Source: Novosphingopyxis sp. (GTDB taxonomy: Bacteria > Pseudomonadota > Alphaproteobacteria > Sphingomonadales > Sphingomonadaceae). From it: a stretch of DNA of 64,000 nt. A program made the translations under genes and the position numbers. Shown in pieces: positions 6,829 to 59,651 of this stretch (position 1 is the stretch's first letter; each line of letters starts with the position of its first letter). The notes below the pieces were generated by a model. It worked only from the letters and a program-made list of their open reading frames with translations, had not been told where the DNA came from and did not search any database. Where the stretch lies: NCBI RefSeq assembly GCF_965218915.1, contig NZ_OZ244711.1, forward strand, positions 8,529-72,528. Direction: 5' to 3'.

Positions 6829-6939
6829 CGTGGGTGCGGCATGCGGTCGGCGGGGATGGGTTACCGTGAGCCATCCGGCCGGAGAGCCGCGCCCACGGCC
6901 TTCTGAGAGGGCGATCGGACCGGAGGCGGCCCGGGCCGG

Positions 6940-7134
6940 CAACGGCTAGGGCAACTTTCTTCCCCTGCCGGCTGCGCCGTCATTCCTCGCGAGGCAAGAA
7001 AGCCGCCCCACGCCGTCCTCCGCTCCGCTGCGGCCGCTCGCGCTGCGCGCAGCGGTGCAAGCCCGGTCCGCCTCCGGTCTTCGACGCCTGCGAAGGCCGC
7101 GATGGGCGCGGCCGGTAGCCGGAGACAGACCACG
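6940..7134 (+). repeat. structured intergenic element, copy E (3' two-thirds)
   Basis: Shares the stem GGGCAACTTTCTT (6949-6961) / AAGAAAGCCGCCC (6996-7008), the TCCTCCGCT box and the GAAGGCCGCGATGGGCGCGG box with the copies at 9417, 39268, 40228 and 44869. Confidence 0.6.
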
Positions 7135-8073
7135 ATGACCCACCCTACCGACCGCGAACATGAGCCCCACCACGCCGCATCCTCGACCGCCTCTCTCCTC
7201 ACCGAACTCCAGCTCTTCGGGCACCGACCCTTCCAGGACGAGCCGGACAGCCGCCCCCTCCCCGACCCGCACCAAGTCGGCACCGCACTGGCCGACATCT
7301 TCGACGCCCTGGTGTCTACCCTCACCGACACGCGCCTCGAACCCGACCTCGAAGATCTGCTCTGGTCCACCGTCAACCTGTTCCACCGCGCCGGCGACCG
7401 GATCGAACGCGAACTCGATGGCAACGAGCAGGCGCAGCGCAGGAGCCAGAAGGAACAGGACGGCTCCGAAATCCGATCGGTCGAGCTGGAACGGCTCCTG
7501 GCGGAGGGCACCACGCTGATCGAACGCCGCAACGCCTTCGAGGCCATGCGCGACGGGGCGGCCGAGCTGTTCGAGACCCACACCGGCGCCACCTGGCGCC
7601 CACGCGCCGGGTCGATGGTGAACCACCGCGCGTTGACATCGGCTGTCATCGACAGCCGCGACTTCCTGCAAGCCAAGCGCCGGGCCGAGACCGAAGTGAT
7701 GCTGCCGCCGGGTCCCAAGGTCGCCTTTGCCGGTGGTTACGAGTGCAACGACCACGCAGCGATCTGGGCCGCACTCGACCGGGTGCATGCGAAGCATCCC
7801 GGCATGGTGCTGCTGCACGGGGGATCGCCCAAGGGCGCCGAACGCATCGCCGCGTGCTGGGCCGACACCCGCAAGGTGCCGCAGATCGCCTTCAAGCCGG
7901 ACTTCATCCGGCATAAGAACGCCGCCCCATTCAAGCGCAACGACCAGCTACTTAATGTCCTACCGATCGGGGTCGTGGTGTTCCCCGGCTCCGGCATCTC
8001 CGACAACCTGGCCGACAAGGCCAAGAAGCTCGGCATCCCCGTGCTCGACTATCGCAAAGGCGGGGGCGGATAG
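7135..8073 (+). CDS. DUF2493 / SLOG-family (DprA/LOG-like Rossmann) domain protein
   Basis: C-terminal 130 aa (VAFAGGYECNDHAAIWAALDRVHAKHPGMVLLHGGSPKGAERIAACWA...VVVFPGSGISDNLADKAKKLGIPV) fits DUF2493. Start moved from 7102 to ATG 7135 (GGAGA SD at 7121-7125) because the 7102 ATG lies in the conserved non-coding box GCGATGGGCGCGG. Confidence 0.8.
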   Translation: MTHPTDREHEPHHAASSTASLLTELQLFGHRPFQDEPDSRPLPDPHQVGTALADIFDALVSTLTDTRLEPDLEDLLWSTVNLFHRAGDRIERELDGNEQAQRRSQKEQDGSEIRSVELERLLAEGTTLIERRNAFEAMRDGAAELFETHTGATWRPRAGSMVNHRALTSAVIDSRDFLQAKRRAETEVMLPPGPKVAFAGGYECNDHAAIWAALDRVHAKHPGMVLLHGGSPKGAERIAACWADTRKVPQIAFKPDFIRHKNAAPFKRNDQLLNVLPIGVVVFPGSGISDNLADKAKKLGIPVLDYRKGGGG

Positions 8074-8837: not shown

Positions 8838-9416
8838 TTGTGCAATGACTTTGGCAATCGCATTCCGTACGACGACTACGTCGAGGCATTCAGCCAGACA
8901 CGACTGCCGCTGAAGGTGCCGGCCGCGATCCCGAACTTCGAGCCGCGGGACGACATCTGGCCGACCGACACGGCGCCGGTCCTGCGCTTGGCCGAGGGCG
9001 GCGTCGAGCTCGTGCAACTACGCTGGGGCTTCGCGCCAGGTCGGCCCAAGGCGGGGCCGGTGATCAATTTCCGCTCGGAGGGACGCCGGTTTTCGAATGG
9101 ACGCTGTATTATTCCTGCATCCCACTTCTTCGAGTTCAGCGGGGCTAAGGCGCCGAAAAGCAAGTGGCGGTTTACCAAGACGGGCGAGGATTGGTTCTGC
9201 TTCGCCGGGCTATGGCGTCCGGAGACGGACGATGTGCTCGAGGCCTTTACGCTGCTCACGACGGCGCCAGGGCCTGACGTTGCCCCGATCCACGACCGTC
9301 AGATGGTGGTGCTGGAGCGCGCCGATTGGCTGGCCTGGCTCGAGCTATCGCGCCCGGAAGCGGAACTGCTGAAGCCCCTGCCCGCTGGCAGCCTGCACGT
9401 CGAACAGGTGCGGTAA
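8838..9416 (+). CDS. SOS response-associated peptidase (SRAP; YedK/HMCES family)
   Basis: 192 aa. A TTG start gives Met-Cys2-Asn (catalytic N-terminal Cys). LRWGFAP, INFRSE, RCIIPASHFFEF and CFAGLW are typical SRAP blocks. Confidence 0.9.
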   Translation: MCNDFGNRIPYDDYVEAFSQTRLPLKVPAAIPNFEPRDDIWPTDTAPVLRLAEGGVELVQLRWGFAPGRPKAGPVINFRSEGRRFSNGRCIIPASHFFEFSGAKAPKSKWRFTKTGEDWFCFAGLWRPETDDVLEAFTLLTTAPGPDVAPIHDRQMVVLERADWLAWLELSRPEAELLKPLPAGSLHVEQVR

Positions 9417-9684
9417 GCCGATGGGTCACCAAGCCCTCTCCTCGGTCAGGACCCGCCCACGCCTGCCTCCTCATGGCCTGATCTGGCCGCAGGACGGCTG
9501 ACGCCTCGATCGCCTCTGCCGCAATGGCGGCCGGGCAACTTTCTTCCCCTGAGCTTCGCCCGCCCGCCCGCCATCTTCGCTCTGCTCCGGCTCGTGCCGA
9601 GTGCGTTGTCGATCGCCTGCGGCCTGTCGAATCGCCATCGGAGGCCGCGATGGGCGCGGTCCCGAGACAACAGGAGAGAGCACC
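9417..9684 (+). repeat. structured intergenic element, copy A (3' stem arm lost; RBS plus ATG retained)
   Basis: Near-identical to 40228-40524, including the 35-nt invariant box (9478-9512) and CAGGAGAGAGCACCATG. The DUF736 ORF expected after the ATG at 9685 is replaced by unrelated DNA. Confidence 0.7.
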
Positions 9685-9687
9685 ATG

Positions 9688-13806: not shown

Positions 13807-13882
13807 TGGACGGCCCCCTGCTAACCCCTTCAAACAACATAGCCTGCCCCGCCGCTTCGGCGCACCCTTTTCCGGACACCTC

Positions 13883-16855
13883 ATGACCGCCATCGACCGC
13901 ACAGCCTACCCACGCCCGGAAGCAGGGCTGACCCGGGAGGAGTTGGGCGAGCGATATCACCTGAGCGAGCCCGAACTCGCCTTCATCCACGCGAGTGCCC
14001 GCCGCGACACCGGCCGATTGCTGCTGGCTATGCTGCTCAAGTCTCGACGGGATTTCGGGTGCTTTCCTGCGCCGGACGCAATCCATGCGGATACAGTCCA
14101 GCACCTGGCGGCGCAGCTTGGGGTTGCCTCGTGCCAGACCTTGGCGGACGAGATGCGCCGGACCAAGTCGCTCTACCGCTACCAAGCCGCGGTGCGGTCC
14201 TACCTGGGCCTCAAGCCGTATGATGACGGAGCGGGGCGCTTCGTCACAGGCACCGTGCTCGAAGCCGCCGAAACCATGAGCGATCCGGCCGACCTCATCA
14301 ACCGGGCCATCGAAGCCCTGCAAACAGCAGCGATCGACCTGCCCGCGTTCAGCACGCTCGACCGGCTGGTGAGCCGGCTGCGCGCCGAAGTCCATGGGCG
14401 CATGTACGACCGTGTTGCAGCCCGGGTCACGGCCGAGCACGCCGCTGTGCTGGATGCCTTGCTGATCAAGCTGACCGGTAGTGTCATCACCGGATTCAAC
14501 CGGCTGAAGCAGGCACCGGGGCCTGCGACCCCCAAGACGATCAGGCTCTGGACCGAGCGCCTTGAATGGCTGGATGGCCTGATCGATCCCGATCCGCTGT
14601 TGGATAGCATCGCGCACACCAAGCTGCGCCAGTTTGCTGCCGAAGCCGCTGCTTCGGAGGTGAGTGACCTGCTCGACATCGCCCAACCCGGCAAACGTGA
14701 CACCCTCCTGCTCGCCTTGCTGCGCCAAGTTCGCATGCGGTGCCGCGATGAGCTGGTCGAGATGATGTTGCGCCGCATCCGGCGCACCCAGGCTCTGGCC
14801 AAAGAACAGCTCGAGGAACTGCATGACCAGCATCGCGCGACCGAGGAAGACCTGATCGGCATCTTCGGCGAGGTGCTCGAGACAGAGCAGGCGCACGGGA
14901 CGGATGCCGCGTTCGGGCGCCAGGTCCGGGATCTCCTCTCCAAGCAGGGCGGCGTCGCCAAGCTGGCGCAGCAGTGCGAGACGGTGTCCGCCTGGCACCG
15001 CGGCAACGACCTTCCGCTGCTGTGGCCTATCCACGCCAAGCACCGCGTCCTGCTGTTCCGGCTGCTCGATCTCACAAACGTCCAGTCGGCAACGCAGGAT
15101 CGCAGCCTGCTGGACGCGCTGGCTGTCGTGAGCAGCCTTCGCCACACCCGCCGCGACGATGTGGACGGCGGCATCGACCTCGGGTTCGCGTCTCCGCGGT
15201 GGCAGGCGTTCGTCACCAGACGCCGGATCAGGCCGGGCGCCATCGACCGGCGTGCGCTTGAGGTGTGCGTGTTCGTCCACTTGGCCGACGCCCTGCAGAC
15301 CGGCGACCTGTTCATTGTCGGGGCCGAAACCTTCGCCGACTACCGCGCCCAGCTTCTGCCCTGGGCCGAGTGCGAAGCGCGGCTGCCCGCCTACTGCGCC
15401 GCACTCGGCATCCCCGAACGGGGCGAAGACTTCGCCGCCGCCCTGAAAGCGGAGCTCACGACGCTGGCCGCCACCGTCGATGCCGGCTTTCCGGCCAACA
15501 CCGAGTTCACCGTGGATGCCGAGGGGACGCCCCATCTGAAGCAGTTGGCGTCGACGGAGCAGCCAGCCGGGCTGCCGGAGTTCGAGGGCGAGATCCAAGC
15601 CCGCCTGGAAGAGCGCCATCTCCTCGACATCCTTAGGCGCACCGAGCACTGGTCGCGCTACACCCGCCACTTCGGGCCACCGTCCGGCGCCGACCCCAAG
15701 CTCGCCCAAGCCGTTCAGCGCTATTTGTTCACCGTGTTCGGCTACGGCTGCAATCTCGGCCCCAGCCAAACCGCCCGGCACGCGCCAGAGGTGGCCACGG
15801 CGCAGGCGCTGCGCCGGATCAACGCGCAGCACGTCACAGGGGCCAAGCTGGAAGCGGCAATGGTGGACGTCATCGACCAGTACGCTCGGTTCGCGCTGCC
15901 GCGGCACTGGGGCGGCGGACGCGCCGCCATTGCCGACGGCACGCATGTCAAACTGCGGGAAAACAACCTGCAGGGTTCCCGGCACATCCGTTATGGCGGC
16001 TATGGCGGCATCGCGTACCACCACGTCGCCGACAATTACATCGCGCTGTTCACCAGCTTCATCCCATGCGGGGTATGGGAAGCCGTCCACATCCTCGACG
16101 GCCTGCTGAAGAACAGGTCCACCATCCAGCCCGACACGCTTCACGCCGATACCCAGGGTCAGTCGGAACCCGTGTTCGGCCTGTGCCGGCTGCTCGGCAT
16201 CAAGCTGATGCCGCGTATGCGTGGCCTGGGCGACACGGTTCTGTACCGGCCGGCCAAGGAGACCCGCTACGCTCATATCGACGCCCTGTTCACCGGCGAG
16301 ATCGACTGGGATCTGATCGCCACCCATCAGCGGGACATGATCCAGGTCATGCTGTCCATCCAGGCCGGGCGGGTCATGCCCTCCATGCTGCTGCGCAAGC
16401 TTGGCACCTACAGCCGCCGCAGCCGGCTCTACCGCGCCTTCCGCGAACTTGGCCGCGTCGAGCGCACCCTGTTCCTGCTGAGCTTCTTCTCCAGCACCGA
16501 GGTCCGTCGGGTTATCCGCGCCGAAACCACCAAGGTCGAGGCCTACAACGACTTCCTGGACTGGGTGTCGTTCGGCGGCCCGGTGATCAAGAGCGGCGAC
16601 CCCGTCGAACAGGAGAAGCAGCTCAAATACGCCAGCCTGGTCGCCAACGCCGTCATGCTGTCCAATGTCGCGGACCTGACGCGCGTCCTGTCCGACATGG
16701 CTGCCGATGGACACCCGGTCACGCCCGCCCTGGCCGCTTCCCTCAGCCCCTACATGCGCCGCCACATTCTACGGTTCGGCCGATACGCGCTCGACATGGA
16801 CAGCCTGCCAGAGCCGCTCGACCCACAGCCGCTCCCCTTCGAGCAGGCCTTGTGA
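13883..16855 (+). CDS. tnpA: Tn3-family transposase
   Basis: About 990 aa starting MTAIDRTAYPRP. DUF4158-type N-terminus and a DDE Tn3 C-terminal region (..ADGTHVKLRENNL..YGGYGGIAYHHVADNYIALFTSFIPCGVWEAVHILDGL..HADTQGQSEPVFGLC..). Confidence 0.9.
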   Translation: MTAIDRTAYPRPEAGLTREELGERYHLSEPELAFIHASARRDTGRLLLAMLLKSRRDFGCFPAPDAIHADTVQHLAAQLGVASCQTLADEMRRTKSLYRYQAAVRSYLGLKPYDDGAGRFVTGTVLEAAETMSDPADLINRAIEALQTAAIDLPAFSTLDRLVSRLRAEVHGRMYDRVAARVTAEHAAVLDALLIKLTGSVITGFNRLKQAPGPATPKTIRLWTERLEWLDGLIDPDPLLDSIAHTKLRQFAAEAAASEVSDLLDIAQPGKRDTLLLALLRQVRMRCRDELVEMMLRRIRRTQALAKEQLEELHDQHRATEEDLIGIFGEVLETEQAHGTDAAFGRQVRDLLSKQGGVAKLAQQCETVSAWHRGNDLPLLWPIHAKHRVLLFRLLDLTNVQSATQDRSLLDALAVVSSLRHTRRDDVDGGIDLGFASPRWQAFVTRRRIRPGAIDRRALEVCVFVHLADALQTGDLFIVGAETFADYRAQLLPWAECEARLPAYCAALGIPERGEDFAAALKAELTTLAATVDAGFPANTEFTVDAEGTPHLKQLASTEQPAGLPEFEGEIQARLEERHLLDILRRTEHWSRYTRHFGPPSGADPKLAQAVQRYLFTVFGYGCNLGPSQTARHAPEVATAQALRRINAQHVTGAKLEAAMVDVIDQYARFALPRHWGGGRAAIADGTHVKLRENNLQGSRHIRYGGYGGIAYHHVADNYIALFTSFIPCGVWEAVHILDGLLKNRSTIQPDTLHADTQGQSEPVFGLCRLLGIKLMPRMRGLGDTVLYRPAKETRYAHIDALFTGEIDWDLIATHQRDMIQVMLSIQAGRVMPSMLLRKLGTYSRRSRLYRAFRELGRVERTLFLLSFFSSTEVRRVIRAETTKVEAYNDFLDWVSFGGPVIKSGDPVEQEKQLKYASLVANAVMLSNVADLTRVLSDMAADGHPVTPALAASLSPYMRRHILRFGRYALDMDSLPEPLDPQPLPFEQAL

Positions 16856-39120: not shown

Positions 39121-39267
39121 CGTCTGAATGCGACCAGTCCTTCACGCCTCGCCGGGTAAGCCGAGCTGGTCTGGTCGACATTCAATCTGAACAGGTAAGC
39201 TGCTGCGGAGTGCAGCGTCTTATGCAAATAGCACACAGCTTTTGATTTCTGGCCGTTACCGGTCGAG

Positions 39268-39474
39268 CCTCCTCATGGCCTGATCTGGCCGCAGGACGGC
39301 TGACGCCTCGATCGCCTCTGCCGCAATGGCGACCGGGTGGCTATTTTGCGCCGGCGCGAGTGCCGTTGCATCGCGAACCAAAATAGCCGCTCGGCCGCCA
39401 TCCTTCCGCTCCGCTTCGGCCTGCAAGCGCAGGTGCGTCGTCGATCGCCATCAGAGGCCGCGATGGGCGCGGTC
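39268..39474 (+). repeat. structured intergenic element, copy B (truncated at both ends)
   Basis: Contains the invariant box (39280-39314) and stem arms 39328-39347 / 39380-39399. Lacks the 5' leader and the RBS/ATG end. An internal direct-repeat deletion has removed TGCGGCCTG..GATCGCC. Confidence 0.65.
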
Positions 39475-40101: not shown

Positions 40102-40227
40102 CATGACCGGCAGATAGTTGTTCTGGAGCGGGCAGATTGGATGACCTGGCTCGAGCTGTCGCGGCCGGAAGCAGAACTGCTGCAACCCTTGCCCGCGGGC
40201 AGCCTGCATGTCGAACAGGTGCGGTAA
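40102..40227 (+). pseudogene. 3' fragment (last 41 codons) of a second, diverged SRAP peptidase gene
   Basis: HDRQIVVLERADWMTWLELSRPEAELLQPLPAGSLHVEQVR* aligns with the end of 8838-9416 (HDRQMVVLERADWLAWLELSRPEAELLKPLPAGSLHVEQVR*). DNA identity is roughly 80% by eye. Confidence 0.7.
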
Positions 40228-40524
40228 GCCGACACGGGGTCACCAAGCCCTCCCCTGCCGGTCAGGACACGCCCACGCTGCCTCCTCATGGCCTGATCTG
40301 GCCGCAGGACGGCTGACGCCTCGATCGACTTTGCCGCAATGGCGGCCGGGCAACTTTCTTCCCCTGCGCTGGCGCGCATTCCTCGCGATCCAAGAAAGCC
40401 GCCCGGCCGCCATCCTCCGCTCTGCTTCGGCCCACAAGCGGGTGCGTCGTCGATCGCCTGCGGCCTGCAGATCGCCATCGGAGGCCGCGATGGGCGCGGT
40501 CCCGAGACAACAGGAGAGAGCACC
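40228..40524 (+). repeat. structured intergenic element, copy C (most complete; reference copy)
   Basis: Invariant box 40293-40327, stem 40341-40360 / 40392-40411, second hairpin GCGGCCT/AGGCCGC, and RBS CAGGAGAGAGCACC before ATG 40525. Confidence 0.7.
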
Positions 40525-40836
40525 ATGGCGACCATCGGCACCTTCACCCGCACCAACGGCAGCTTCACCGGCGCGGTCAAGACCCTCAGCATTAACGCCA
40601 AGACCACGATCAAGCCCGCCGACAAGGCCAACGATCGCGCGCCCGACTACCGCATCCTCACGGGGTCTGCCGTGGAGTTCGGGGCCGCCTGGAAAAAGAC
40701 CTCCGGCGAGGGTCGCGAGTATCTCTCGGTCAAGCTCGACGACCCCAGCTTCCCCGCCCCGATCTACGCCACCTTGGTCGAAGCAGACGAAGCCGGCACG
40801 TTCAACCTGATCTGGTCCCGCCGCAACGGCGACTGA
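40525..40836 (+). CDS. DUF736 domain-containing protein
   Basis: 103 aa. [44 protein letters not shown]...[22 protein letters not shown] fits the DUF736 family. Start set at the ATG behind a good RBS. Confidence 0.85.
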   Translation: MATIGTFTRTNGSFTGAVKTLSINAKTTIKPADKANDRAPDYRILTGSAVEFGAAWKKTSGEGREYLSVKLDDPSFPAPIYATLVEADEAGTFNLIWSRRNGD

Positions 40837-44587: not shown

Positions 44588-44868
44588 GCGCGGGCAGAGG
44601 AAGCACCAGCGTATCCCGGCGTGCCACGCCTCCGTTAATCGAACGGCTAGACAGAATGCGAGGTGTGGATGACAGCACCGCTCCCAGGCGCACTCTCGTT
44701 GCAGCCCCGCTGGCGGACGGTCTGCTCAGCGTCGTAGCGGGAGGCGAGAAGCAGGATCCGCCGGAGCCGGCTCGCGCTGCACCCGCATTGCTGCTTTGGG
44801 ATGGACCGCACCCGCACGCACCTGCCGGTCACAATGCCTCTCTCGTCGCGATACTCCCCTGTCCTTCC

Positions 44869-45129
44869 GGACACGCCCATGCCGCCTCTTGATGGGCTGA
44901 TCTGGCCGCAGGACGGCTGACGCCTCGATCGCCTCTGCCGCAATGGCGGCCGGGCGGCTATTTTCCGCCGGCGCGAGCGCCTTTGCATCGCGAAACAAAA
45001 TAGCCGCCCGGCCGCCATCCTCCGCTGCGCTATGGCCTGCACGCAGGTGCGGCGTCGATCGCCTGCGGCCTGTCGATCGCCATCGAGGCCGCGATAGGCG
45101 TGGTCCCGAGGGACAGACAGGAGAGCACC
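44869..45129 (+). repeat. structured intergenic element, copy D (perfect 20-bp stem)
   Basis: Invariant box 44897-44931. Stem GGCGGCCGGGCGGCTATTTT (44945-44964) / AAAATAGCCGCCCGGCCGCC (44997-45016). RBS CAGGAGAGCACC before ATG 45130. Confidence 0.7.
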
Positions 45130-45444
45130 ATGGCGACTATCGGGACCTTCACCCGCTCGGCCGGCGGCACCTTCACCGGCGCGGTCAAGACCCTCAGCAT
45201 CAACGCCAAGACCACGATCAAGCCGGCCGACAAGGCCAGCGACAAGGCGCCCGACTACCGCGTCTTCGCCGGGTCTAGCGTGGAGTTCGGCGCCGCTTGG
45301 AAGAAGACCTCCGGCGAGGGCCGCGCTTATCTCTCGGTCAAGCTCGACGATCCCAGCTTCCCGGCTCCGATCTATGCCACCCTGGTCGAGGGCGAGGAAA
45401 CCGGCAGCTACAGCTTGATCTGGTCCCGCCGCAACGGGGACTAA
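45130..45444 (+). CDS. DUF736 domain-containing protein (paralog 2)
   Basis: 104 aa. [45 protein letters not shown]... is about 80% identical to the 40525-40836 product by eye. Confidence 0.85.
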
Positions 45445-47304: not shown

Positions 47305-47323
47305 GCGTGCCTCGCGATACCCC

Positions 47324-47544
47324 GCGACCAGACTCCACACAGCGACGGAAATCCGACTCGGGAGCGGGCGCAAGCGTCAGGCGCGGCACGTGGCCAGCTT
47401 TTATCCACAGAGTGGCCGTGGAGTCTGGTCGCAGCCTTTGTGGAGTCTAGACGCGCGACTCGTAGTTATCCCGTGGAGTCTGGTCGCACACACTAATAGT
47501 AAGAACAAATAATCCTTCAAATAGCCTGCGCGACTAGACTCCAA
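47324..47544. repeat. iteron / centromere-like 15-bp repeat cluster (5 copies)
   Basis: GTGGAGTCTGGTCGC at 47418 and 47473, and the variant GTGGAGTCTAGACGC at 47440 (spacings 22 and 33 bp). Inverted copies lie at 47324-47338 and 47530-47544. Confidence 0.7.
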
Positions 47545-51712: not shown

Positions 51713-51724
51713 AGGCCAACGATA

Positions 51725-51836
51725 GGTGTCGGACTTGTGTCGGATCAACTGCCGGACAAGTGTCGGACTAACGTCGCACCAAAGTGGTGGGCAATGGGTT
51801 ATAGACCAAGGCACCCTAGCGGGTGCTTGTTGCGCC
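51725..51836 (-). promoter_or_regulatory. candidate oriT: three phased 9-bp direct repeats plus an IR with a MOBF-like nic motif on the minus strand
   Basis: GTGTCGGAC/T at 51725, 51736 and 51759. IR GCACCC-TAGC-GGGTGC at 51811-51826. The minus strand reads GGGTGCCTTGGTCT/ATAACCCATTG, compared with the R388 nic region GGTGCGTATTGTCT/ATAGCCCAG (from memory). Confidence 0.5.
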
Positions 51837-51863: not shown

Positions 51864-52151
51864 ATGATCAATCCCACTGAAGCGCTCAGGGCCGAAGTCG
51901 CCGGGCTGCGAACCGACGTCCAAGCTCTCACGAGCGGCCTGATGCTGATGCTCGAAGTACAGGAGACACACGGCGAACTGCTGCGCGAGCTGGGCGAAGC
52001 ACTGGGACAGGAGCCGGACGGCCCCAGCCCGGTGGCGGAAGCGCTCGAGGCGCTCGCAGCAATTGGCCGAGACCAGACCGCCGCGATTGAACGACTCAGC
52101 CAGCGTATCGTGGGCGCCACCCTTCGCGGCGTCGGGTCGCCGGCGTCGTAG
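51864..52151 (+). CDS. small coiled-coil protein upstream of the relaxase (possible relaxosome accessory factor)
   Basis: 95 aa, helical heptad-like sequence. Ends 13 nt before the relaxase GTG. Confidence 0.4.
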   Translation: MINPTEALRAEVAGLRTDVQALTSGLMLMLEVQETHGELLRELGEALGQEPDGPSPVAEALEALAAIGRDQTAAIERLSQRIVGATLRGVGSPAS

Positions 52152-52163
52152 GCGGTCCGCCGG

Positions 52164-55100
52164 GTGCTGACCTACGCCACCATCGCCGCGGGATCGGGGG
52201 CAGGGGGTAAGGCGCTCGCCGAATACCTGCTGCAGACGCTTCCGGTCGAGCGAGCGGACCTGGCGAGCTACTATCAGCGCGGGATGCGTCCCGACCTGGC
52301 CGGCACGCTGGGCGATGACACCTTTGCGGCCGAGGCGACCCTGCTGGTGAAGCAGGGCACGAGGCTGGACGATCTGCCAGACGCGCTCGACGCTGCCGTG
52401 CAGCGCCGCCATGCCGGGTTCGTAGAGCGCTACCTGGCCGGCGAGCGCGCAATCCCGGAGGGCGAGGCTCTGGCGCGTCTCGCCGAGCACGTGGTGACCT
52501 CGGGCAACCCGGCCGACGAGGCCGAGACGGTTCTCACGCGCTTGCGCGAGGCGGCTTCGGACGCGGCCGAAAGTGATCGCATCGTCCAGGCCTTTCGGGA
52601 TGCCGAGAGCGCCGCGTTCTATCGCCGCGACAAGGTGCTCGAAGCCGTGGAGCGCGGCCTCTACGGGCACAGCACGGCCGAGCCGAGGCGGGACATGCAC
52701 CCGCACTTGGGCGAGATGCTTGGGCTGGACTCGCACCGCGTTCCCACGGCCGACGAGATCGGCCACATCCTCTCCGGGCGCCGCGCGAACGGCGAGGAGA
52801 TCGAGGGCAAGTCGCGACAGAAGGGGACGGTGAGCCTGTCCGATGCGCTCGGACTCGACTCCTCGCGTCCACCGACATGGGACGAGATCAGTCACATCCT
52901 CGACAGGCGCCGGGCGGATGGGACGCCGATCGCCGGGCCGGGCACTGAGACAGCGCGGCATCGCTTTCTGGATCTGCTGGGCGTGAGGGCGGCCGAGCCT
53001 GACCAGAACCAGGTGCGACACCTGATGGCCGGGCGCATGGTGGACGGCAGCGAGCTGGACACCGACGCGTACCGGCGTGGCGTGGAGGCGAGCAAGGCAC
53101 GGATCGCGGCGGTGGACCTGACGTTCTCGGCCGACAAGTCGGTGTCCATCGCCTGGGCGCTCGCGCCGACGGAGGCGGAGCGGAACATGCTCGCCCAGGC
53201 GCACAAGGACGCCGTGGCGAGCACCATGGCCGTGATCGCGGACGAGCTGGGACACGCGCGCCGCGGCAAGGCCGGGAGTGGCGGAACGGAAGCCGGGCAC
53301 ATCACTTGGCTGGGCTTCGACCACTACGCGAGCCGGCCCGTCGTGCCGGTGGCGCGGACGGACGCGCAGGGCAATCCCTACACGGAACTGCTCAGCTTCG
53401 GCGCGGCCGGGGACCCGGCGCTGCACAGCCATATGCTCGTGCCGTCCGTCGTGATGACCGACACGGGCCGGGTCACGTCGCTCGACTTGGACACGATGGC
53501 GGGCAAGACGCACACCTGGGGCGCGTTCTACCAGGCGTTCCTCGCGACGAACCTCAAGCGCCTCGGCGTCGAGGTCGGGTTGGACGAGCGCACGGGCGCG
53601 GCGCGGCTGTCCGCTATCCCCGAGAACGTGCGGGACGCCTACTCCAAGCGCACGAGGGACGGCACGGAGGCGGCGCGCGAATACGCTGCGACCCAGGGCA
53701 AGGACTGGGACAGCCTCTCTGACCGGCAGAAGGTTGGCCTGGTCCACGCCAGCACCCAGGCCCGGCGCCGAGCGAAGGACGCGGCCGGCGGCAACCAAGA
53801 GGATCGCGTGGCCGATTTCGTTGCCTGGGAGCGGCAGGCCAAGAGCATGGGCTACGCGCACAAGAGCGTGCTGGGCGCGACGCCTCCGCCTGCGCCGAGC
53901 CGCGACGATCGGCTCCAAGGTGCCTACCAGACTGCGTTGCGGCTCCTGGACAAGGTGTTCGTCGGCACGGCGAAGGTGGACGGGGAGAAGCTGCGGGAGA
54001 TCGCCGCGCGCGGTCTCATCACGACGTCGATGGAAGATGTCACCGACGTGAAGGCCGTCACCCGCGCCTTCGCTACACGGGGCGTTCGCCAAGATGGGCG
54101 GGATGTCGCTCTGATCTGGGGCGAGGACCCGGCCGTGCGCGGCAAGGCCCGGATCGGCGTCACCACGACGCTGCACGAGGCGCAGGAACAAGAGGTTGTG
54201 GCCGGGTTGCGGGCAGCGGCCGGGGACAGGTCCGCCGCGCTCTCCAAGCGCGCCATAGAGGCCGCCGTGACGCGAAGCGGGCTGACCTTCGACGGCGAGC
54301 ACGGACGGGCGCAGCGGGCGGCAATCGATGCGCTTGGTACGGGCGGACGCTTTGCGGCGTTCATCGGAGCGGCCGGAGCGGGCAAGAGCAGCGTCTTGCG
54401 TCCGCTGGTCGATGCTTGGCGCCAGGACGGCAAGCGCGTGTTCGGGACCGCGCTGGGAAATAACCAGACGGACGCGCTCGAGGACGCCGGCATCAAGGCT
54501 GCGGATCGAGCGGCGCTCGATCCATTTCTCAAGCAAGCGGCGGCAGGCAGATTCGAGCTGGCTCATGACTCGGTGGTGGTGATCGAGGAGGTCGGGCGCG
54601 TCGGCACGCGACAGCTTCGCGAGCTGATGCGGCTGCAAGGCGAGCTCGGGTTCAAGGTTGTCGCGGTCGGCGATCCCGAGCAGCTCCAGAGCATCGAGGC
54701 GGGGCACGTCGTCGGGCTCATGCGCCGCGCCCTGGGCGAGAACGCCATCCCGGAGATCGCCACCACGCTGCGGCAGCGGACGGACGAGGAGAAGCTGACG
54801 ACGAGCTTGTTCCGAGAGGGGCAAGCGGCGGAGGCGATCGAGCGCAAGCGCATGGACGGGACGGCGATCCTCGTCGCCGGTGATCACACGGCGGTGGTCG
54901 AGCGGGTCGCGGCGCTCTGGCGCGAGCGGATCGAGATCGGCGCCGAGGTGACGGTCAGCGCGCCGACGAACGCGGACGCCCGCGCCGTTGCCCTCGCCAT
55001 CCGCGAGCAGCGCCGCGCCATGGGCCAGATCGGTGCCGATCTGGTGAGCGTCGACGCGACCAGCCGGAGTAGGTTCAACGCCGGCGTGGGCGAGGACTAC

Positions 55101-55985
55101 GACATGCGGCTCGCGGCGGGGGATCGCGTTCGGCTCTACGAGCGCGCCACCGCCACCTTCTCGGCAACGGACGGCTCGGGACGCACCACGCACGGCAACA
55201 TCGGCAATAACGGGTCGGTGCTGGAGGTGCGCGGCATCACGCCGGAAGGCCTGGCGCTCCGCAACGTCGCCGGGCGCGAGGGCCTGGTTCGCTGGGAGAC
55301 GCTGCGCGACCAAGAGAGCGGCCGCATCCGGTTGGGCTGGGGAGACGCGCTCACCATCGATGCGGCGCAGGGCAGCACGGTCGGCCAGCACATCCTCGCC
55401 ATGCCGAGCGGCTCGGCCGGCGTGAACGGCTACCAGGGCTACACGGCGGGGAGCCGGCATCGCGATGAGACGCTGATGGTGGTCGGGGATGCAGCGGAAC
55501 GCCGGGAGATTACAGCCCGGCGGCCGCGAGGTGACTTCCGGCCGATCGGCGAGGGAGACGTGTGGGAGAACGTCGCGCAAAACCTCTCGCGTAAGCCGGA
55601 ACGCTCGTCGGCGCTCGCCTTCCTCGATCGCGCGGTCAACGTGCGTCGCGGCACGGTGCGGGCCTTCCAGGGCGAGCTGGAGCGCATGGAGCGGCGGCAG
55701 GCCGAGGGAAAGGCGCCGACAGCAGAGGCCAAGGCACGAGGCCAGGCGAGCGCTGCGAGGGAAACCGTCCGGCGGCATAGGGCGGCAGCGCAGGAAGCGG
55801 TAGCACGCCCGGAAAGATCTGTACGGGCGCGGATGGCGAAGGTGGCGCGGCGGGTAAGGCCGGCCCTGGATCGAGCGCGGAAAGCGGCACGCAAGCTGCG
55901 CGAGGTGGCCGGATGGGCGAACTGGGGGCTTCGTGGCGCTTCGGAGCAGCGACGTCATGAGCGTAACGCGGGACGCCGGCGCTAG
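52164..55985 (+). CDS. MOBF-type conjugative relaxase/helicase (TrwC/TraI-like)
   Basis: 1273 aa with a GTG start. N-terminal Tyr pair (LASYYQRG), His triad AAGDPALHSHMLVPSV, helicase Walker A FIGAAGAGKSSVL, and VVVIEEVGRV / VAVGDPEQLQSIEAG motifs. Confidence 0.9.
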   Translation: MLTYATIAAGSGAGGKALAEYLLQTLPVERADLASYYQRGMRPDLAGTLGDDTFAAEATLLVKQGTRLDDLPDALDAAVQRRHAGFVERYLAGERAIPEGEALARLAEHVVTSGNPADEAETVLTRLREAASDAAESDRIVQAFRDAESAAFYRRDKVLEAVERGLYGHSTAEPRRDMHPHLGEMLGLDSHRVPTADEIGHILSGRRANGEEIEGKSRQKGTVSLSDALGLDSSRPPTWDEISHILDRRRADGTPIAGPGTETARHRFLDLLGVRAAEPDQNQVRHLMAGRMVDGSELDTDAYRRGVEASKARIAAVDLTFSADKSVSIAWALAPTEAERNMLAQAHKDAVASTMAVIADELGHARRGKAGSGGTEAGHITWLGFDHYASRPVVPVARTDAQGNPYTELLSFGAAGDPALHSHMLVPSVVMTDTGRVTSLDLDTMAGKTHTWGAFYQAFLATNLKRLGVEVGLDERTGAARLSAIPENVRDAYSKRTRDGTEAAREYAATQGKDWDSLSDRQKVGLVHASTQARRRAKDAAGGNQEDRVADFVAWERQAKSMGYAHKSVLGATPPPAPSRDDRLQGAYQTALRLLDKVFVGTAKVDGEKLREIAARGLITTSMEDVTDVKAVTRAFATRGVRQDGRDVALIWGEDPAVRGKARIGVTTTLHEAQEQEVVAGLRAAAGDRSAALSKRAIEAAVTRSGLTFDGEHGRAQRAAIDALGTGGRFAAFIGAAGAGKSSVLRPLVDAWRQDGKRVFGTALGNNQTDALEDAGIKAADRAALDPFLKQAAAGRFELAHDSVVVIEEVGRVGTRQLRELMRLQGELGFKVVAVGDPEQLQSIEAGHVVGLMRRALGENAIPEIATTLRQRTDEEKLTTSLFREGQAAEAIERKRMDGTAILVAGDHTAVVERVAALWRERIEIGAEVTVSAPTNADARAVALAIREQRRAMGQIGADLVSVDATSRSRFNAGVGEDYDMRLAAGDRVRLYERATATFSATDGSGRTTHGNIGNNGSVLEVRGITPEGLALRNVAGREGLVRWETLRDQESGRIRLGWGDALTIDAAQGSTVGQHILAMPSGSAGVNGYQGYTAGSRHRDETLMVVGDAAERREITARRPRGDFRPIGEGDVWENVAQNLSRKPERSSALAFLDRAVNVRRGTVRAFQGELERMERRQAEGKAPTAEAKARGQASAARETVRRHRAAAQEAVARPERSVRARMAKVARRVRPALDRARKAARKLREVAGWANWGLRGASEQRRHERNAGRRR

Positions 55986-57788: not shown

Positions 57789-59651
57789 CTATTCGGCCGC
57801 CTCGGCGGGAATCGCCGAGTGGACTGGGCGTCGAACAAATCGATTGTCGCCGGCGATGCTGTTCTCCCACTCGCGGCGAAAATAGAGCGGTACGCCACAG
57901 CGGATCGGGGCGCAGCCGGCGGCTAGGACGAACATCTCGTCGGCGCGCGCCTCGCGGATCTCGTCGGGCTTGATAAGGCTGCGCTTGATTTCGTGACGGT
58001 TCGTGTTCCGCCCGCGCGAGCGCGTGCCCAGCTCGAAGCCCTTGTTCGACGTGCCCCGGTTGTCGCCCTCGCTAGTGGCCTGCACGCCATGTTCGCCGAT
58101 TTCCTTGGACAAGGACTCTTGCGTGCGGCGATCCAGCACTCGCGCATAGCCGCGCCAGGACAGGTTCGGGAACCACAGGTCGCAACCAGCCTTGCCGCGG
58201 CGGCCCCAGACCTCGTCAATTTCGGTCTCGGACAGATGCGGGAGGTGCAACGTGGCGCCGTATTTGCGGCCGGTGTCGCGCAGCAGCTCGAAGGCGACCA
58301 CGCGCCCGATAGTGCCCATCTCGTCCGGGATGATAAGGGTACGGCTGTGATAGTTCCCGTTCGCCTCGATGAAGGCCCAGGCAAAGGCGTCCAGCGCAGC
58401 CCGAACGATACCCGGGGAGAACTTGAGCGCATCAAACCCGACGTGGATGTAGACCGTCGTCGGGCGCTCGGTGATCTCGCGCGGCGACAAATCCGTGCCG
58501 GAAAGGAAGTCGGCGGCCGCGTCGTCCAGCATCCAGCGCGTGAGCTGAGTGGCGGAGAAGTAGGCGCCGCTGAACGTCTCCTCGGCCAGGCCCATGAGCG
58601 TCCTGGCACCGAGCTTGGCGGCCGTGCACGGGCTGATCGCCGCGATCCCGGCGAGGAGATTTTTCATGTCCTTCTCAGCCGTCGTGATGAGATCGCGCAG
58701 GGTGCGCAGGTTGCGGTGGTGGCGGGGCACGCTTTCGTCCCAGAGCATGTGACCGAGCAGCGCGGCCACCATGTTCCGCCCGGCGTCGTCGAAAATGCTG
58801 TCGGCGTCGCGGTCGCGCTCCTCGCCGCACAACGAACCGACGACGGAGAGCACGCGCCTCGTGGCGTTGGGAGATTTGGGGTCGATGCCGCCCAGCAGGT
58901 CAAGGGCATCGCCCCCGAGAGCAATCCGGATTACACGATTGCCCATCGCCTCGCGCGCGCTCTGGGTCAGGTCGGCGATTTCGTCCGACGGGTCGACGAC
59001 GATGGCGGAGCCACGCCAGTGCATCAGGCGCGTGGCGATGGAGGCGGTCTTTCCGCCGCCGCTGCCGGAGACGAAAATCGAGTGCGTCGGCCCCTCGATG
59101 CACGGATCGACCAGGAGCGGCACCTGGCCGCCGGGTCCCCAGGTTGCTTTGTCGCGCGACCTGAACTCGAGCGCGCCAACCTCGGACAGATCCATGCGGA
59201 CGGCCTCGCCGATGACAAGGAAGGGCTCGCCAGACGGGTCGGGCTGGAAGCGGTCCCGGGCCTCGTTCATTGGCAGCCAGTCGGCATGGCCATGATTGTC
59301 AGTGTCGGCCCGCTCAATGGGCTTCACCGGCTTCCGCATGCCGACCGCGAGCAGGCGGCTCCAGCGCAGGGCGCGGAGCCGTGCGAAGATCGCGGCCACG
59401 ATGAGGAGGGCGGCAACGCTCGGCAGGAACGCGGCGGCGATGAGCGCGCCTAGCAGCTTGGGGGCACCGCGCGCGTACGGCAGCGCGTCGTACCAGAGCG
59501 TGAGTTCCCACTCCAGGCGTACCCGGCCAAGGCCATAAGTGTTGCTCAGATAGGCGAACAGGTAGCTCGAGGCCGCGAGCCAGCCGAGCGCGAGCAGCAG
59601 CGGGACGGCGACGACGGCGACGGCCGCTGCAATCAGGCCGCGGCGGCGCAT
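57789..59651 (-). CDS. virD4: type IV coupling protein (VirD4/TraG/TrwB family)
   Basis: 620 aa with two N-terminal TM segments, Walker A FVSGSGGGKTAS and Walker B-like TLIIPDEMG. Confidence 0.9.
   Translation of the reverse strand: MRRRGLIAAAVAVVAVPLLLALGWLAASSYLFAYLSNTYGLGRVRLEWELTLWYDALPYARGAPKLLGALIAAAFLPSVAALLIVAAIFARLRALRWSRLLAVGMRKPVKPIERADTDNHGHADWLPMNEARDRFQPDPSGEPFLVIGEAVRMDLSEVGALEFRSRDKATWGPGGQVPLLVDPCIEGPTHSIFVSGSGGGKTASIATRLMHWRGSAIVVDPSDEIADLTQSAREAMGNRVIRIALGGDALDLLGGIDPKSPNATRRVLSVVGSLCGEERDRDADSIFDDAGRNMVAALLGHMLWDESVPRHHRNLRTLRDLITTAEKDMKNLLAGIAAISPCTAAKLGARTLMGLAEETFSGAYFSATQLTRWMLDDAAADFLSGTDLSPREITERPTTVYIHVGFDALKFSPGIVRAALDAFAWAFIEANGNYHSRTLIIPDEMGTIGRVVAFELLRDTGRKYGATLHLPHLSETEIDEVWGRRGKAGCDLWFPNLSWRGYARVLDRRTQESLSKEIGEHGVQATSEGDNRGTSNKGFELGTRSRGRNTNRHEIKRSLIKPDEIREARADEMFVLAAGCAPIRCGVPLYFRREWENSIAGDNRFVRRPVHSAIPAEAAE

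What the first reader, a model, noticed from the sequence alone, without database searches (positions are those of the whole stretch)
40228..40524. Multi-copy structured non-coding element in front of backbone genes, with a 20-bp stem kept by compensatory changes
Five copies share one architecture upstream of plus-strand genes.
- A: 9417-9684
- B: 39268-39474
- C: 40228-40524
- D: 44869-45129
- E: 6940-7134 (3' two-thirds only)

The long hairpin arms pair as follows.
- C: 40341-40360 GGCGGCCGGGCAACTTTCTT with 40392-40411 AAGAAAGCCGCCCGGCCGCC (one 2x2 internal loop).
- D: 44945-44964 GGCGGCCGGGCGGCTATTTT with 44997-45016 AAAATAGCCGCCCGGCCGCC (perfect 20 bp).
- B: 39328-39347 with 39380-39399 (two G:T wobbles and one mismatch).
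- E: 6949-6961 with 6996-7008.

The distal stem is CTTTCTT/AAGAAAG in C and E but CTATTTT/AAAATAG in B and D. Two positions changed on both arms so that pairing is preserved (T:A to A:T, and C:G to T:A). This is the signature of selection on structure, not on a reading frame.

A second conserved hairpin (GCGGCCT...AGGCCGC) and a common RBS (CAGGAGAG..ACC-ATG) follow. C and D drive the two DUF736 paralogs, and E drives the SLOG/DUF2493 gene. A keeps the RBS and ATG, but the ORF behind it has been replaced.

I do not recognise this as a described RNA family or IS end. Possible roles are a structured 5' UTR or cis-regulator, a single-stranded-DNA promoter or priming (ssi) signal used on the entering T-strand, or a recombination hotspot.
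Basis: seen in the sequence. Interest (0 to 1): 0.85.

Follow-up and report, generated by a model that had tools for sequence, protein, structure and literature searches.

The report
Long hairpin before plasmid leading genes
A self-pairing non-coding element of about 260 bases sits directly in front of DUF736, SLOG and ArdC genes in hundreds of alphaproteobacterial conjugative plasmids and ICEs (Ti plasmids included), on the side of oriT that enters the recipient first. Its pairing looks tuned to the transferred DNA strand, so it is a candidate single-stranded-DNA promoter or priming signal, a kind shown experimentally so far only in enterobacterial plasmids.

Summary

**Structure.** The stem is only the tip of a larger structure. 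The whole element of about 260 nt folds into one long branched rod: 62 pairs, 86.6% paired against 35-47% in slid controls, and 44 pairs with changes on both sides.

**Distribution.** It precedes 76 of 80 genomic and 78 of 80 metagenomic DUF736 genes, some SLOG genes and, in shortened form, ArdC. It is found in 555 plasmid records. It matches no Rfam family and nothing in E. coli or F-type plasmids.

**Position.** An R388-like nic site in the window and the MOBQ nic motif in pTiC58 place the minus strand as the transferred strand. All copies therefore lie in the leading region, with that strand as template.

**Which strand folds.**
- Rod: mismatches favour minus-strand G·T (94 against 59 events).
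- Last 19-nt hairpin before the RBS: mismatches favour plus-strand G·U (30 against 10 events).

**Reading.** The best explanation is a T-strand DNA hairpin that drives early expression and/or priming, analogous to Frpo, with an mRNA 5' hairpin. No canonical -35/-10 boxes were found, so the mechanism is unproven.

The parts
40262..40527 (+). Copy C, full element in front of DUF736 paralog 1 (CDS 40525-40836). The rod spans about 40262-40505. The strand given is that of the gene served; the rod is inferred to fold on the - strand.
   Evidence: nhmmer E 2e-48; - strand DNA fold -91.9 kcal/mol, z -7.8; Pfam DUF736; column map
40340..40412 (+). Tip of the rod in C. P1 is 40340-40353 / 40399-40412. 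The A/T-rich P2 is CTTTCTT 40354-40360 / AAGAAAG 40392-40398. Inside lie the conserved internal loops CCCCTG and CATTCCTCGCG and the small variable hairpin P3.
40270..40337 (+). Left (5') arm of the rod in C. It holds CGCCCACGCTGCCTCCTC, TGGCCTGATCTGGCCG, the small branch hairpin GGCTGACGCC, CGATCG and GCCGC. It pairs with 40444-40496.
   Evidence: long-range helices with changes on both sides; fold
40430..40443 (+). P4 side hairpin (GCCC-loop-GGGT), variable in sequence and loop length.
   Evidence: CG49/GC19/UA5 and CG56/UA8/GC6 at two of its pairs
40444..40496 (+). Right (3') arm of the rod in C (GCGTCG, CGATCG, CGGCC, GATCGCCA, TCGGAGGCCGCGATGGGCG).
40483..40501 (+). Terminal hairpin GGCCGCG-ATGGG-CGCGGTC, the most conserved block, 23 nt before the ATG. 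It is an alternative to the rod base and shows a + strand (RNA-like) wobble pattern.
   Evidence: 93.7% paired, 56 G.U cells, one GC/AU covarying pair; events GU 30 vs AC 10
40512..40527 (+). Shared RBS (GGAGAG) and ATG of DUF736.
44866..45132 (+). Copy D, full element in front of DUF736 paralog 2 (45130-45444). P2 is of the CTATTTT/AAAATAG type (44958-44964 / 44997-45003). The terminal hairpin is 45087-45105. It lies about 6.7 kb from the predicted nic site.
6882..7137 (+). Copy E, full-length divergent element in front of the SLOG/DUF2493 gene (7135-8073). P2 is 6955-6961 / 6996-7002 and the terminal hairpin is 7095-7113.
   Evidence: nhmmer profile 4-258, E 4e-30
9446..9687 (+). Copy A. The 3' arm of P1/P2 and P3 are deleted. 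The last 57 nt are 100% identical to C. The ATG at 9685 is followed by unrelated sequence (cargo side: GntR regulator 9899-10582).
39266..39474 (+). Copy B, a decayed copy. It lacks the 5' base, part of the right arm and the RBS, and no gene follows. It is 93% identical to D over 138 nt.
51795..51835 (-). Predicted oriT nic region. On the - strand an inverted repeat GCACCCGCTAGGGTGC is followed by CTTGGTCT|ATAACCCA. It defines the - strand as the T-strand and everything at lower coordinates as the leading side.
   Evidence: compare R388 GCGCACCGAAAGGTGCGTATTGTCT|ATAGCCCA in PMC4176350; TrwC relaxase 52164-55985 on the + strand

Best explanation
The element is a DNA-level signal of the transferred strand. 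During conjugation the minus strand, which is the T-strand and also the template of the genes behind every copy, enters the recipient as single-stranded DNA. The roughly 250-nt segment then snaps into a long branched hairpin. That local duplex is proposed to let host RNA polymerase, or a primase, start on DNA that is still single-stranded. The result would be early ('zygotic') transcripts of DUF736, SLOG and ArdC, and perhaps primers for the complementary strand, as Frpo does in F and ColIb-P9. The transcript would start inside the right arm, so the mRNA begins with the conserved 19-nt GGCCGCG-ATGGG-CGCGGCC hairpin, followed by the RBS.

Shown here: the rod structure and its covariation, the family's distribution and gene association, the leading-region position and orientation, and the opposite wobble bias of the rod and the terminal hairpin.

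Inferred: that the structure forms in vivo on the T-strand, that transcription or priming starts there, and where it starts.
For: 1. **Structure.** The rod has 62 pairs in 13 helices on 75 sequences. 86.6% of cells are paired against 35-47% when partners are slid. 44 pairs change on both sides against 16-27. The covariation score is 0.200 against 0.056-0.080, and 0 of 500 shuffles reach the observed values. The long-range helices pair bases about 230 nt apart, which protein binding to duplex DNA cannot explain.
2. **Which strand folds.** On 126 sequences, rod pairs lose Watson-Crick pairing to A.C (a G.T on the minus strand) 94 times and to G.U 59 times. Background substitutions at unpaired columns favour G.U-making changes (fraction 0.572). 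p = 0.006 against 0.5 and 4e-6 against background. The terminal hairpin shows the reverse, 30 against 10 (Fisher p = 6e-5) (the 75-sequence version is). The weak bias (about 2:1) fits DNA G.T tolerance better than RNA.
3. **Fold stability.** The minus-strand DNA fold of copy C is -91.9 kcal/mol, z = -7.8, and nearly continuous. The pTiC58 copy gives z = -4.3. The minus strand is more stable than the plus strand in 73 of 75 copies, partly through base composition.
4. **T-strand and leading region.** The window carries an R388-like IR plus GGTCT|ATAACCCA on the minus strand at 51795-51835, just upstream of the TrwC relaxase. pTiC58 carries the MOBQ motif TAATTGCGCCCT on the minus strand between traC and traA. 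In the genomic loci the relaxase lies downstream on the same strand in 20 of 22 cases. The T4CP/traG lies downstream on the opposite strand in 22 of 23.
5. **Gene set.** The genes served are ArdC (anti-restriction), DUF736 and SLOG, next to ParB-like, Toprim and SRAP genes, all co-oriented.
6. **Parallel with F.** F has multi-copy, near-identical long stem-loops in front of its leading genes (PMC9849209; PMC11541004).
Against: - No canonical -35/-10 pair was found anywhere in the element on either strand. The best alignment-wide score is 7.5 of 15.1, for TTCCCG-N17-TTTTTT.
- There is no sequence similarity to Frpo-bearing E. coli plasmids.
- The strand bias is modest. It rests on a MAFFT alignment, an NJ tree and parsimony.
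- The T-strand assignment comes from nic-motif similarity, not from experiment.
- The shortened ArdC form is not significantly rod-like (z = -1.4).
- In this window copies A and E lie more than 40 kb from nic because of the cargo insertion.
- Early expression of leading genes has not been reported for alphaproteobacterial elements in the papers I could search.
- The tight coupling to the RBS and the RNA-like terminal hairpin would also fit a purely RNA-level leader.
Confidence: 0.42

Rival explanations
1. It is a plus-strand RNA leader. The whole element is transcribed as a long structured 5' UTR or intercistronic RNA. That RNA controls translation, stability or termination of DUF736, SLOG and ArdC, perhaps by switching between the rod base and the terminal hairpin, or between the two CCTCGA copies that can both pair with ATCGAGG.
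For: - The spacing to the RBS is fixed and the RBS context is conserved.
- The terminal hairpin has an RNA-like G.U excess.
- Mutually exclusive pairings exist: rod base against terminal hairpin, and cols 25-30 or 88-95 against 292-300.
- The variable hairpins P3 and P4 tolerate insertions at their tips, as in riboswitch-like RNAs.
- Copies E, A and C start only 30-54 nt after the upstream stop codon, so read-through transcription is plausible.
- The + strand RNA fold has z = -4.7.
Against: - The rod helices show no G.U preference on the + strand. The bias runs the other way (59 GU against 94 AC events).
- G.U makes up only about 2% of rod cells, whereas well-studied structured RNAs carry many more G.U than A.C pairs (general knowledge).
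- The minus strand folds at least as well.
- No Rfam family, ligand-binding-like core or terminator was seen.
Confidence: 0.2
2. It is a priming signal only (ssi or sso type). The T-strand hairpin serves as an assembly site for host primosome, RNA polymerase or a plasmid primase to start complementary-strand synthesis in the recipient. It has no role in expression, and its place in front of genes merely reflects available non-coding space.
For: - The same structural, strand and leading-region evidence applies as for the best explanation.
- Several copies are spread along the T-strand.
- A DUF7146-Toprim protein is encoded in the same block (5764-6828).
- ICEs and rolling-circle plasmids are known to need single-strand origins (general knowledge: ssoA/ssoU, ICEBs1 sso, RSF1010 ssiA/B).
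Against: - In nearly all of 160 sampled loci the distance from the element to the RBS and ATG varies by only a few nucleotides, which a priming site does not need.
- The element accompanies three unrelated gene families.
- Toprim relatives were seen near only 3 of 80 loci.
- Ti-type plasmids carry the element without that gene.
Confidence: 0.13
3. It is a sense/antisense RNA pair of the FinP/traJ or CopA/CopT kind. Both strands are transcribed across the leader and both RNAs must fold. Helices are therefore kept as Watson-Crick pairs with little wobble on either strand.
For: - G.U and A.C are both rare, about 2% of cells each.
- The conserved loop sequences at P2/P3 could be kissing loops.
- A minus-strand sRNA (QfsR) is known next to the pTiC58 DUF736 gene (bioRxiv 10.1101/533729).
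Against: - QfsR maps downstream of the gene, not over the element.
- No conserved minus-strand promoter was found.
- Known antisense systems use short hairpins, not a 250-nt rod with pairing between the ends.
Confidence: 0.08
4. It is an ordinary double-stranded promoter/operator region. The repeated CCTCGAT / ATCGAGG / CGATCG motifs are binding sites of a plasmid repressor that co-regulates a backbone regulon, like KorB or ArdK/StbA operators.
For: - CCTCGA, CGATCG and TCGAGG are nearly invariant and occur as direct and inverted repeats.
- The same region precedes several backbone genes.
Against: - It cannot explain compensatory changes in helices of variable sequence that lie up to 230 nt apart (cols 44-53 with 275-288; P1, P3, P4).
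- It cannot explain the strand-specific mismatch spectrum.
- No consensus promoter was found.
Confidence: 0.07
5. It is a selfish or recombinational repeat (MITE-like, or a hotspot used to capture cargo).
For: Copies A and C, each with about 130 nt of the SRAP gene 3' end, bracket the roughly 30-kb Tn3-family cargo region. B is a broken copy at a junction.
Against: - The position is orthologous and the gene association fixed across many families of Alphaproteobacteria. Copies within one element diverge to about 60-65% identity (C or A against B over 138 nt; five-copy mean column identity 73%).
- No target-site duplications or transposase link were seen.
Confidence: 0.03

Closest known systems
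Frpo / Frpo-like single-stranded-DNA promoters of F, ColIb-P9 and related enterobacterial plasmids (Masai & Arai 1997; Couturier 2023, PMC9849209; Samuel 2024, PMC11541004)
   Same: - A non-coding segment of a few hundred nt in the leading region.
- Multi-copy within one element.
- Placed directly upstream of co-oriented leading genes whose template is the T-strand.
- Predicted to fold into a long imperfect stem-loop on that strand.
- Serves anti-restriction and ssDNA-related genes.
   Different: - No sequence similarity (no hit in 5,426 E. coli genomes with their plasmids).
- No reconstituted TTGACA/TATAAT boxes.
- G+C-rich, with a branched tip of conserved internal loops.
- Different host clade (Alphaproteobacteria) and different relaxase families (MOBF TrwC-type and MOBQ Ti-type).
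- No experimental evidence.
Single-strand origins and ssi signals (ssoA/ssoU of rolling-circle plasmids, ICEBs1 sso, RSF1010 ssiA/ssiB, G4-type and PriA-type ssi)
   Same: Strand-specific ssDNA hairpins, up to 150-300 nt long in the sso types, recognised by RNA polymerase or primase to start the complementary strand. They are needed after conjugative entry.
   Different: - Those elements are not tied to a gene start.
- They have their own conserved motifs (RSB and CS-6 in ssoA), which are absent here.
- There is usually one per replicon.
Structured mRNA leaders of conjugation genes (traJ leader with FinP antisense RNA; 5' stem-loops that stabilise mRNAs)
   Same: A conserved hairpin immediately upstream of the RBS with an RNA-like G.U pattern (the terminal hairpin), and control of a transfer-associated gene.
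   Different: The bulk of the element (the rod) does not show RNA-type wobble on the mRNA strand, and no antisense gene is known here.
Candidate ssDNA or RNA motifs of mobile elements in Rfam (STAXI, DUF1874/attC-like and others; Weinberg 2017, PMC5737381)
   Same: Found by comparative analysis next to conjugation, anti-restriction and SSB genes. Whether they act as RNA or ssDNA is ambiguous.
   Different: cmscan finds none of them here at gathering score. The architecture differs: a single rod, not tandem pseudoknots or attC R/L boxes.

Membership tests
Frpo-type ssDNA promoter | Lies in the leading region, upstream of genes whose template strand is the T-strand | tested here: met
   The nic motif is on the - strand at 51795-51835, next to the TrwC gene. 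The pTiC58 MOBQ motif is on the - strand. Synteny holds in 20 of 22 and 22 of 23 loci. The T-strand is assigned by motif similarity, not by experiment.
Frpo-type ssDNA promoter | The T-strand folds into a long stable stem-loop | tested here: met
   The - strand DNA fold is -91.9 kcal/mol, z -7.8. Covariation supports the rod. The mismatch spectrum favours the - strand.
Frpo-type ssDNA promoter | The stem reconstitutes canonical -35 and -10 boxes at promoter spacing | tested here: not met
   There are no consensus matches in or near any copy. The best alignment-wide score is 7.5 of 15.1. The scan used the E. coli consensus; alphaproteobacterial or alternative sigma motifs were checked only by eye.
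Frpo-type ssDNA promoter | Sequence homology to known Frpo/ssi sequences | tested here: not met
   There is no blastn match (word 11, E <= 1e-3) in 20,395 E. coli records, which include F-like plasmids. The genera named among the plasmid hits are alphaproteobacterial; 38 further genera were not listed.
Frpo-type ssDNA promoter | RNA polymerase initiates on the single-stranded form, and the genes are expressed before ss-to-ds conversion | not testable with these tools
   This needs in vitro transcription on ssDNA and time-resolved expression in recipients.
Rfam RNA family (any of 4227) | Covariance-model score at or above the family's gathering threshold | tested here: not met
   There are 0 hits in the 64-kb window. 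In 11 related loci the only hit is an unrelated sul1. The best sub-threshold hits are gntR-DTE at 25.5 bits against 63.6, and miRNA hairpins.
Cis-regulatory structured mRNA leader (riboswitch-like) | Helices conserved on the mRNA strand with G.U tolerated far more than A.C | tested here: not met
   Not met for the rod: 59 GU against 94 AC events. Met for the terminal hairpin alone: 30 against 10.
MITE / IS terminus | Terminal inverted repeats, near-identical scattered copies, no fixed gene association | tested here: not met
   The position in front of DUF736 is fixed in 76 of 80 and 78 of 80 loci. Copies within the window fall to about 60-65% identity: C or A against B over 138 nt, with a five-copy mean column identity of 73%.
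ssoA-type single-strand origin | Conserved RSB and CS-6 (TAGCGT-like terminal loop) motifs | not tested
   I recall these motifs from memory only. None is obvious in the alignment, and no model was available.

The most novel reading that the evidence does not exclude
Alphaproteobacterial conjugative plasmids and ICEs (Ti/Ri plasmids, rhizobial symbiosis plasmids and ICEs, TrwC-type ICEs) share an undescribed family of T-strand hairpins. These switch on leading-region genes (ArdC, DUF736, SLOG) from single-stranded DNA without canonical -35/-10 boxes. That would be a second, independently evolved class of ssDNA promoter/primer signal. Its product is an mRNA that starts with a conserved protective hairpin, so one sequence is read as DNA structure on one strand and as RNA structure on the other.
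Probability: 0.33. Interest if true: 0.85.

Novelty: new variant of a known kind. Interest (0 to 1): 0.7.

Why it matters
**Scale.** The element is in at least 555 sequenced plasmids and in most sampled DUF736 loci across Rhizobiales, Rhodobacterales, Caulobacterales, Sphingomonadales and Acetobacteraceae. Carriers include Ti plasmids and symbiosis ICEs of agricultural importance.

**If the reading is right.**
- The 'zygotic induction from ssDNA' paradigm would extend beyond enterobacterial plasmids.
- Such signals would be shown to exist without recognisable sigma-70 boxes. Searches based on -35/-10 motifs or on Frpo homology would then miss them.
- There would be a handle on the unknown function of DUF736, one of the most constant backbone genes of these elements. 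It would be predicted to act in the first minutes after entry.

**If the reading is wrong.** It would still be a large, well-supported, unannotated structured element fit for a new covariance model.

Tried and rejected
- **Rfam.** Gathering mode was run on the window and on 11 loci, E-value mode on copies C and D. Nothing credible appeared. The gntR-DTE hit (25.5 bits, minus strand, copy C only) did not recur on D and was dropped. I could not read the description of that motif.
Tested and rejected.
- **Leader peptide.** The ATG inside GCGATGGGCG is not conserved (GATAGG, GACGG, AATGG variants) and is out of frame with DUF736. Indels are not multiples of three.
- **Sigma-70 promoter.** I used the tool scan, a weighted matrix over the alignment on both strands, and inspection by eye for sigma-54, EcfG, sigma-32 and Caulobacter-type motifs. 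None was convincing. The only A/T-rich stretch (P2; TATTTT in type-2 copies) has no usable -35.
- **Whole-element energy comparison of the two strands**. The minus strand is more stable, but base composition (C-rich plus strand) explains much of it. I relied on the pair-level event test instead.
- **Hairpin-loop motifs** (GNRA/UUCG) as a strand or RNA indicator. Mixed and uninformative.
- **QfsR sRNA of pTiC58.** It lies downstream of the DUF736 gene and is not homologous to the element.
- **A second pair of long inverted repeats** (1793-2016 and 8608-8815). I first took these as further Frpo-like hairpins. They have 23- and 33-nt terminal repeats, an A/T-rich interior and almost no relatives in plasmids. 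They look like MITEs and were not used as support.
- **DUF736 fold.** The single-sequence AlphaFold model was too poor to search (pLDDT 42), and there is no PDB relative by sequence.
- **Covariance model.** Not built. The MAFFT alignment with a hand-drawn structure and slid or shuffled controls answered the covariation question, and nhmmer answered the copy-number question.
Full report
**1. What is in the window**

The window (66% G+C) is the backbone of an alphaproteobacterial conjugative element. The genes identified are:
- a ParB_N protein (3535-5655)
- DUF7146-Toprim (5764-6828)
- SLOG/YAcAr (7135-8073)
- SRAP (8838-9416)
- two DUF736 paralogs (40525-40836 and 45130-45444)
- a resolvase, ParA, an RHH protein and RepA
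- a TrwC-type relaxase (52164-55985, + strand)
- a coupling protein (57789-59651, - strand) and VirB8

A cargo block of about 30 kb, with a Tn3-family transposase (13739-16855), splits the backbone between 9.7 and 39.2 kb.

**2. The observation**

A profile search finds exactly these five copies, all on the + strand.

Two details need correction.
- E is a full-length divergent copy, not a truncated one.
- B is a wreck, cut at both ends and with an internal deletion.

A and C share their last 57 nt at 100% identity and the preceding 131 nt of SRAP 3' end at 87%. They are therefore a recent duplication that brackets the cargo.

**3. The family**

blastn of copy C against PLSDB finds 555 plasmid records. 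These include Agrobacterium 185, Rhizobium 121 and Bradyrhizobium 81, and 370 are typed conjugative. Most hits lie just upstream of a DUF736 gene.

I then sampled DUF736 genes without regard to their upstream sequence.
- Among 80 species-representative genomes, 76 have the full element, 3 a partial one and 1 none.
- Among 80 metagenome contigs, 78 have it.

The same element precedes SLOG/DUF2493 genes in five loci. A shortened form precedes ArdC in six loci. That form lacks the A/T-rich stem but keeps GCAACGGC-loop-GCCGTCCTCCAC, GGTGCG and the GCCGCGATGGGCGCGGC block.

Rfam 15 has no family for it. The literature I could search does not mention it. The Mesorhizobium ICE survey only notes that DUF736 (msi110) is on all elements, often in duplicate (PMC8627217).

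**4. The structure**

RNAalifold and a hand-curated model on 75 non-redundant copies (alignment A4) give a branched rod. The parts, from the base upwards, are:
- the 5' 100 nt, which pair with the 3' 60 nt in helices built around CCTCGA/TCGAGG, GGTC/GACC, GACCG/CGGTC, CGATCG/CGATCG and CCCGC/GCGGG
- a small branch hairpin
- the P1-P2-P3 arm, with conserved internal loops of two types: CCCCTG...CATTCCTCGCG, and CCGCCG...CTTTGCATCGCG
- a two-pair element, CCRY-N-RYGG-like, that covaries GC/AU in 31 of 75 copies
- the variable P4 hairpin

The numbers, are:

| Measure | Observed | Slid-partner controls |
|---|---|---|
| Cells paired | 86.6% | 35-47% |
| Pairs changed on both sides (of 62) | 44 | 16-27 |
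| Covariation score | 0.200 | 0.056-0.080 |

None of 500 shuffles reaches the observed values.

P3 is almost purely Watson-Crick in 64 distinct variants. The tips of P3 and P4 accept REP-like insertions.

By contrast, the 19-nt hairpin GGCCGCG-ATGGG-CGCGGCC just before the RBS is 93.7% paired. It overlaps the rod base, so the two structures exclude each other.

**5. Which strand folds**

I asked which way Watson-Crick pairs break. A G.U on the + strand is an A.C on the - strand, and the reverse. I used parsimony on an NJ tree of 126 copies.

| Part of the element | WC to G.U events | WC to A.C events |
|---|---|---|
| 48 rod pairs that do not touch the terminal block | 59 | 94 |
| Terminal hairpin | 30 | 10 |

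Substitutions at unpaired columns favour the G.U-making direction (fraction 0.572). For the rod, p = 0.006 against parity and 4e-6 against that background. The difference between the two parts gives Fisher p = 6e-5.

The smaller 75-sequence set gave the same picture. The rod therefore does not behave like an RNA of the mRNA strand. It behaves like a structure of the minus strand with only weak wobble tolerance, which is what DNA would show. The terminal hairpin behaves like mRNA.

Whole-element energies agree: the minus strand is more stable in 73 of 75 copies. That comparison is confounded by the C-rich plus strand.

**6. Which strand is transferred**

*In the window.* Just upstream of a small ORF and the TrwC gene, the minus strand reads GCACCCGCTAGGGTGC-CTTGGTCT|ATAACCCA. 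The R388 TrwC substrate is GCGCACCGAAAGGTGCGTATTGTCT|ATAGCCCA (PMC4176350). By analogy:
- the nick is on the minus strand near 51803/51802
- transfer proceeds towards lower coordinates
- the relaxase gene enters last
- D, C and B lie 6.7, 11.3 and 12.4 kb into the leading region
- A and E follow, behind the cargo

*In pTiC58.* The MOBQ motif (consensus TAAGTGCGCCCT, PMC3832669) is on the minus strand between traC and traA. This puts traCDG, then DUF736, then ArdC on the leading side.

*Across the 80 genomic loci.* The relaxase is downstream on the same strand in 20 of 22 cases. The coupling protein is downstream on the opposite strand in 22 of 23. The ParB-like gene is upstream on the same strand in 46 of 46.

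In two unrelated relaxase systems, then, the genes behind the element are transcribed from the strand that enters first.

**7. Mechanism**

Three findings point to a signal that acts on the entering single strand:
- a long hairpin selected on the T-strand
- several copies of it in front of co-oriented leading genes
- a gene set that includes an anti-restriction gene

The documented precedent is Frpo. In F, two 92%-identical stem-loops 5 kb apart drive ygeAB and ssb-psiB from ssDNA and are silenced by complementary-strand synthesis (PMC9849209). In vitro, Frpo also makes a primer for DNA replication, as the title of Masai & Arai 1997 states (reference list of PMC11541004).

My proposal follows the same logic, with the mRNA starting inside the right arm so that it carries the conserved 5' hairpin.

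The weak point is that the defining Frpo feature is absent. I found no -35/-10 pair in any frame of reference and no homology to E. coli plasmids. I therefore do not file it as a Frpo member. I say it may work like one, at a confidence of about 0.4.

**8. Rivals**

- *Pure RNA leader.* This is the main rival. It explains the fixed distance to the RBS, the alternative pairings and the terminal hairpin, but not the mismatch spectrum of the rod.
- *Priming-only signal.* It fits the strand data but not the coupling to gene starts.
- *Sense/antisense pair.* It would explain the rarity of both wobble types, but no antisense gene is evident. QfsR maps elsewhere.
- *Operator arrays.* They cannot explain the long-range covariation.
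- *MITE-like repeats.* They cannot explain the fixed orthologous position in front of the same genes.

**9. Verdict**

The finding is real, widespread and undescribed in the resources I could check. The structural claim is strengthened and enlarged.

Noticed in passing
window 51720-51835: Probable oriT. GTGTCGGAC-like repeats (51727-51770) are followed by an inverted repeat GCACCCTAGCGGGTGC. On the minus strand there is an R388-like nic core, GGTCT|ATAACCCA. A 95-aa ORF (51864-52151) lies between it and the TrwC gene and may be the accessory protein.
   Followed up: partly
window 8608-8815 and 1793-2016: Two MITE-like elements with 33-nt and 23-nt terminal inverted repeats that share GTCACCTCA and have an A/T-rich interior. 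One ends 22 nt before the SRAP gene, the other about 190 nt before the gene at 2204. The minus-strand DNA fold of the first is -58.5 kcal/mol, z -8.1. Only one partial relative was found in PLSDB (Sphingobium).
   Followed up: partly
window 9291-9687 vs 40102-40527: A segmental duplication (SRAP 3' end plus element) brackets the cargo of about 30 kb, which holds the Tn3-family transposase, a molybdopterin oxidoreductase and a GntR regulator. Only a remnant of the SRAP gene's 3' end (about 130 nt) lies upstream of C. Copy B sits at another junction. The repeats could delete or capture cargo by homologous recombination.
   Followed up: partly
window 47323-47543: At least five direct and inverted copies of a motif of about 15 nt (GCGACCAGACTCCAC / GTGGAGTCTGGTCGC) lie between the RHH gene and repA. 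They are probably iterons or operators.
   Followed up: no
L001 (pTiC58) 8712-8899, minus strand: The published sRNA QfsR (pTiC58 139,262-139,075; bioRxiv 10.1101/533729) lies just downstream of, and convergent with, the second DUF736 gene (atu6119). It is said to be conserved across RepABC plasmids. It is not homologous to the element studied here.
   Followed up: partly
L008, L010, L018, L022, L067, L081 (within the element): A REP-like palindromic insert (for example CACCCCACGGCGCACGCGCCGCGGGGACCCC) is found at the tip of P3 or P4 in several unrelated copies. These loops therefore tolerate insertions of 30-40 nt.
   Followed up: no
L001:960-998, L006:165-201, L004:805-840: In the ArdC leaders the Shine-Dalgarno GGAGG is paired with an adjacent CCTCC (for example CCTCCGAAAACGGAGG). 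This small SD-sequestering hairpin is absent from the DUF736 leaders.
   Followed up: no
alignment A4 columns 25-30, 88-95 and 292-300: The motif CCTCGA(T) occurs twice in the 5' half, and both copies can pair with the single ATCGAGG in the 3' half. This may be a conformational switch, or repeated protein-binding sites.
   Followed up: partly
L003 (Methylocystis plasmid) 4321-5501: Two DUF2285 genes follow the DUF736 gene. From memory, DUF2285 is the family of FseA, the activator of ICEMlSymR7A transfer; I did not check this here. The order ParB-Toprim-SLOG-DUF736 matches the window.
   Followed up: no
L044:238-290: A sul1 riboswitch-class RNA (Rfam RF03058, 61 bits) lies about 5.5 kb upstream of a DUF736 locus in a Phenylobacterium genome. 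It is unrelated to the element.
   Followed up: no
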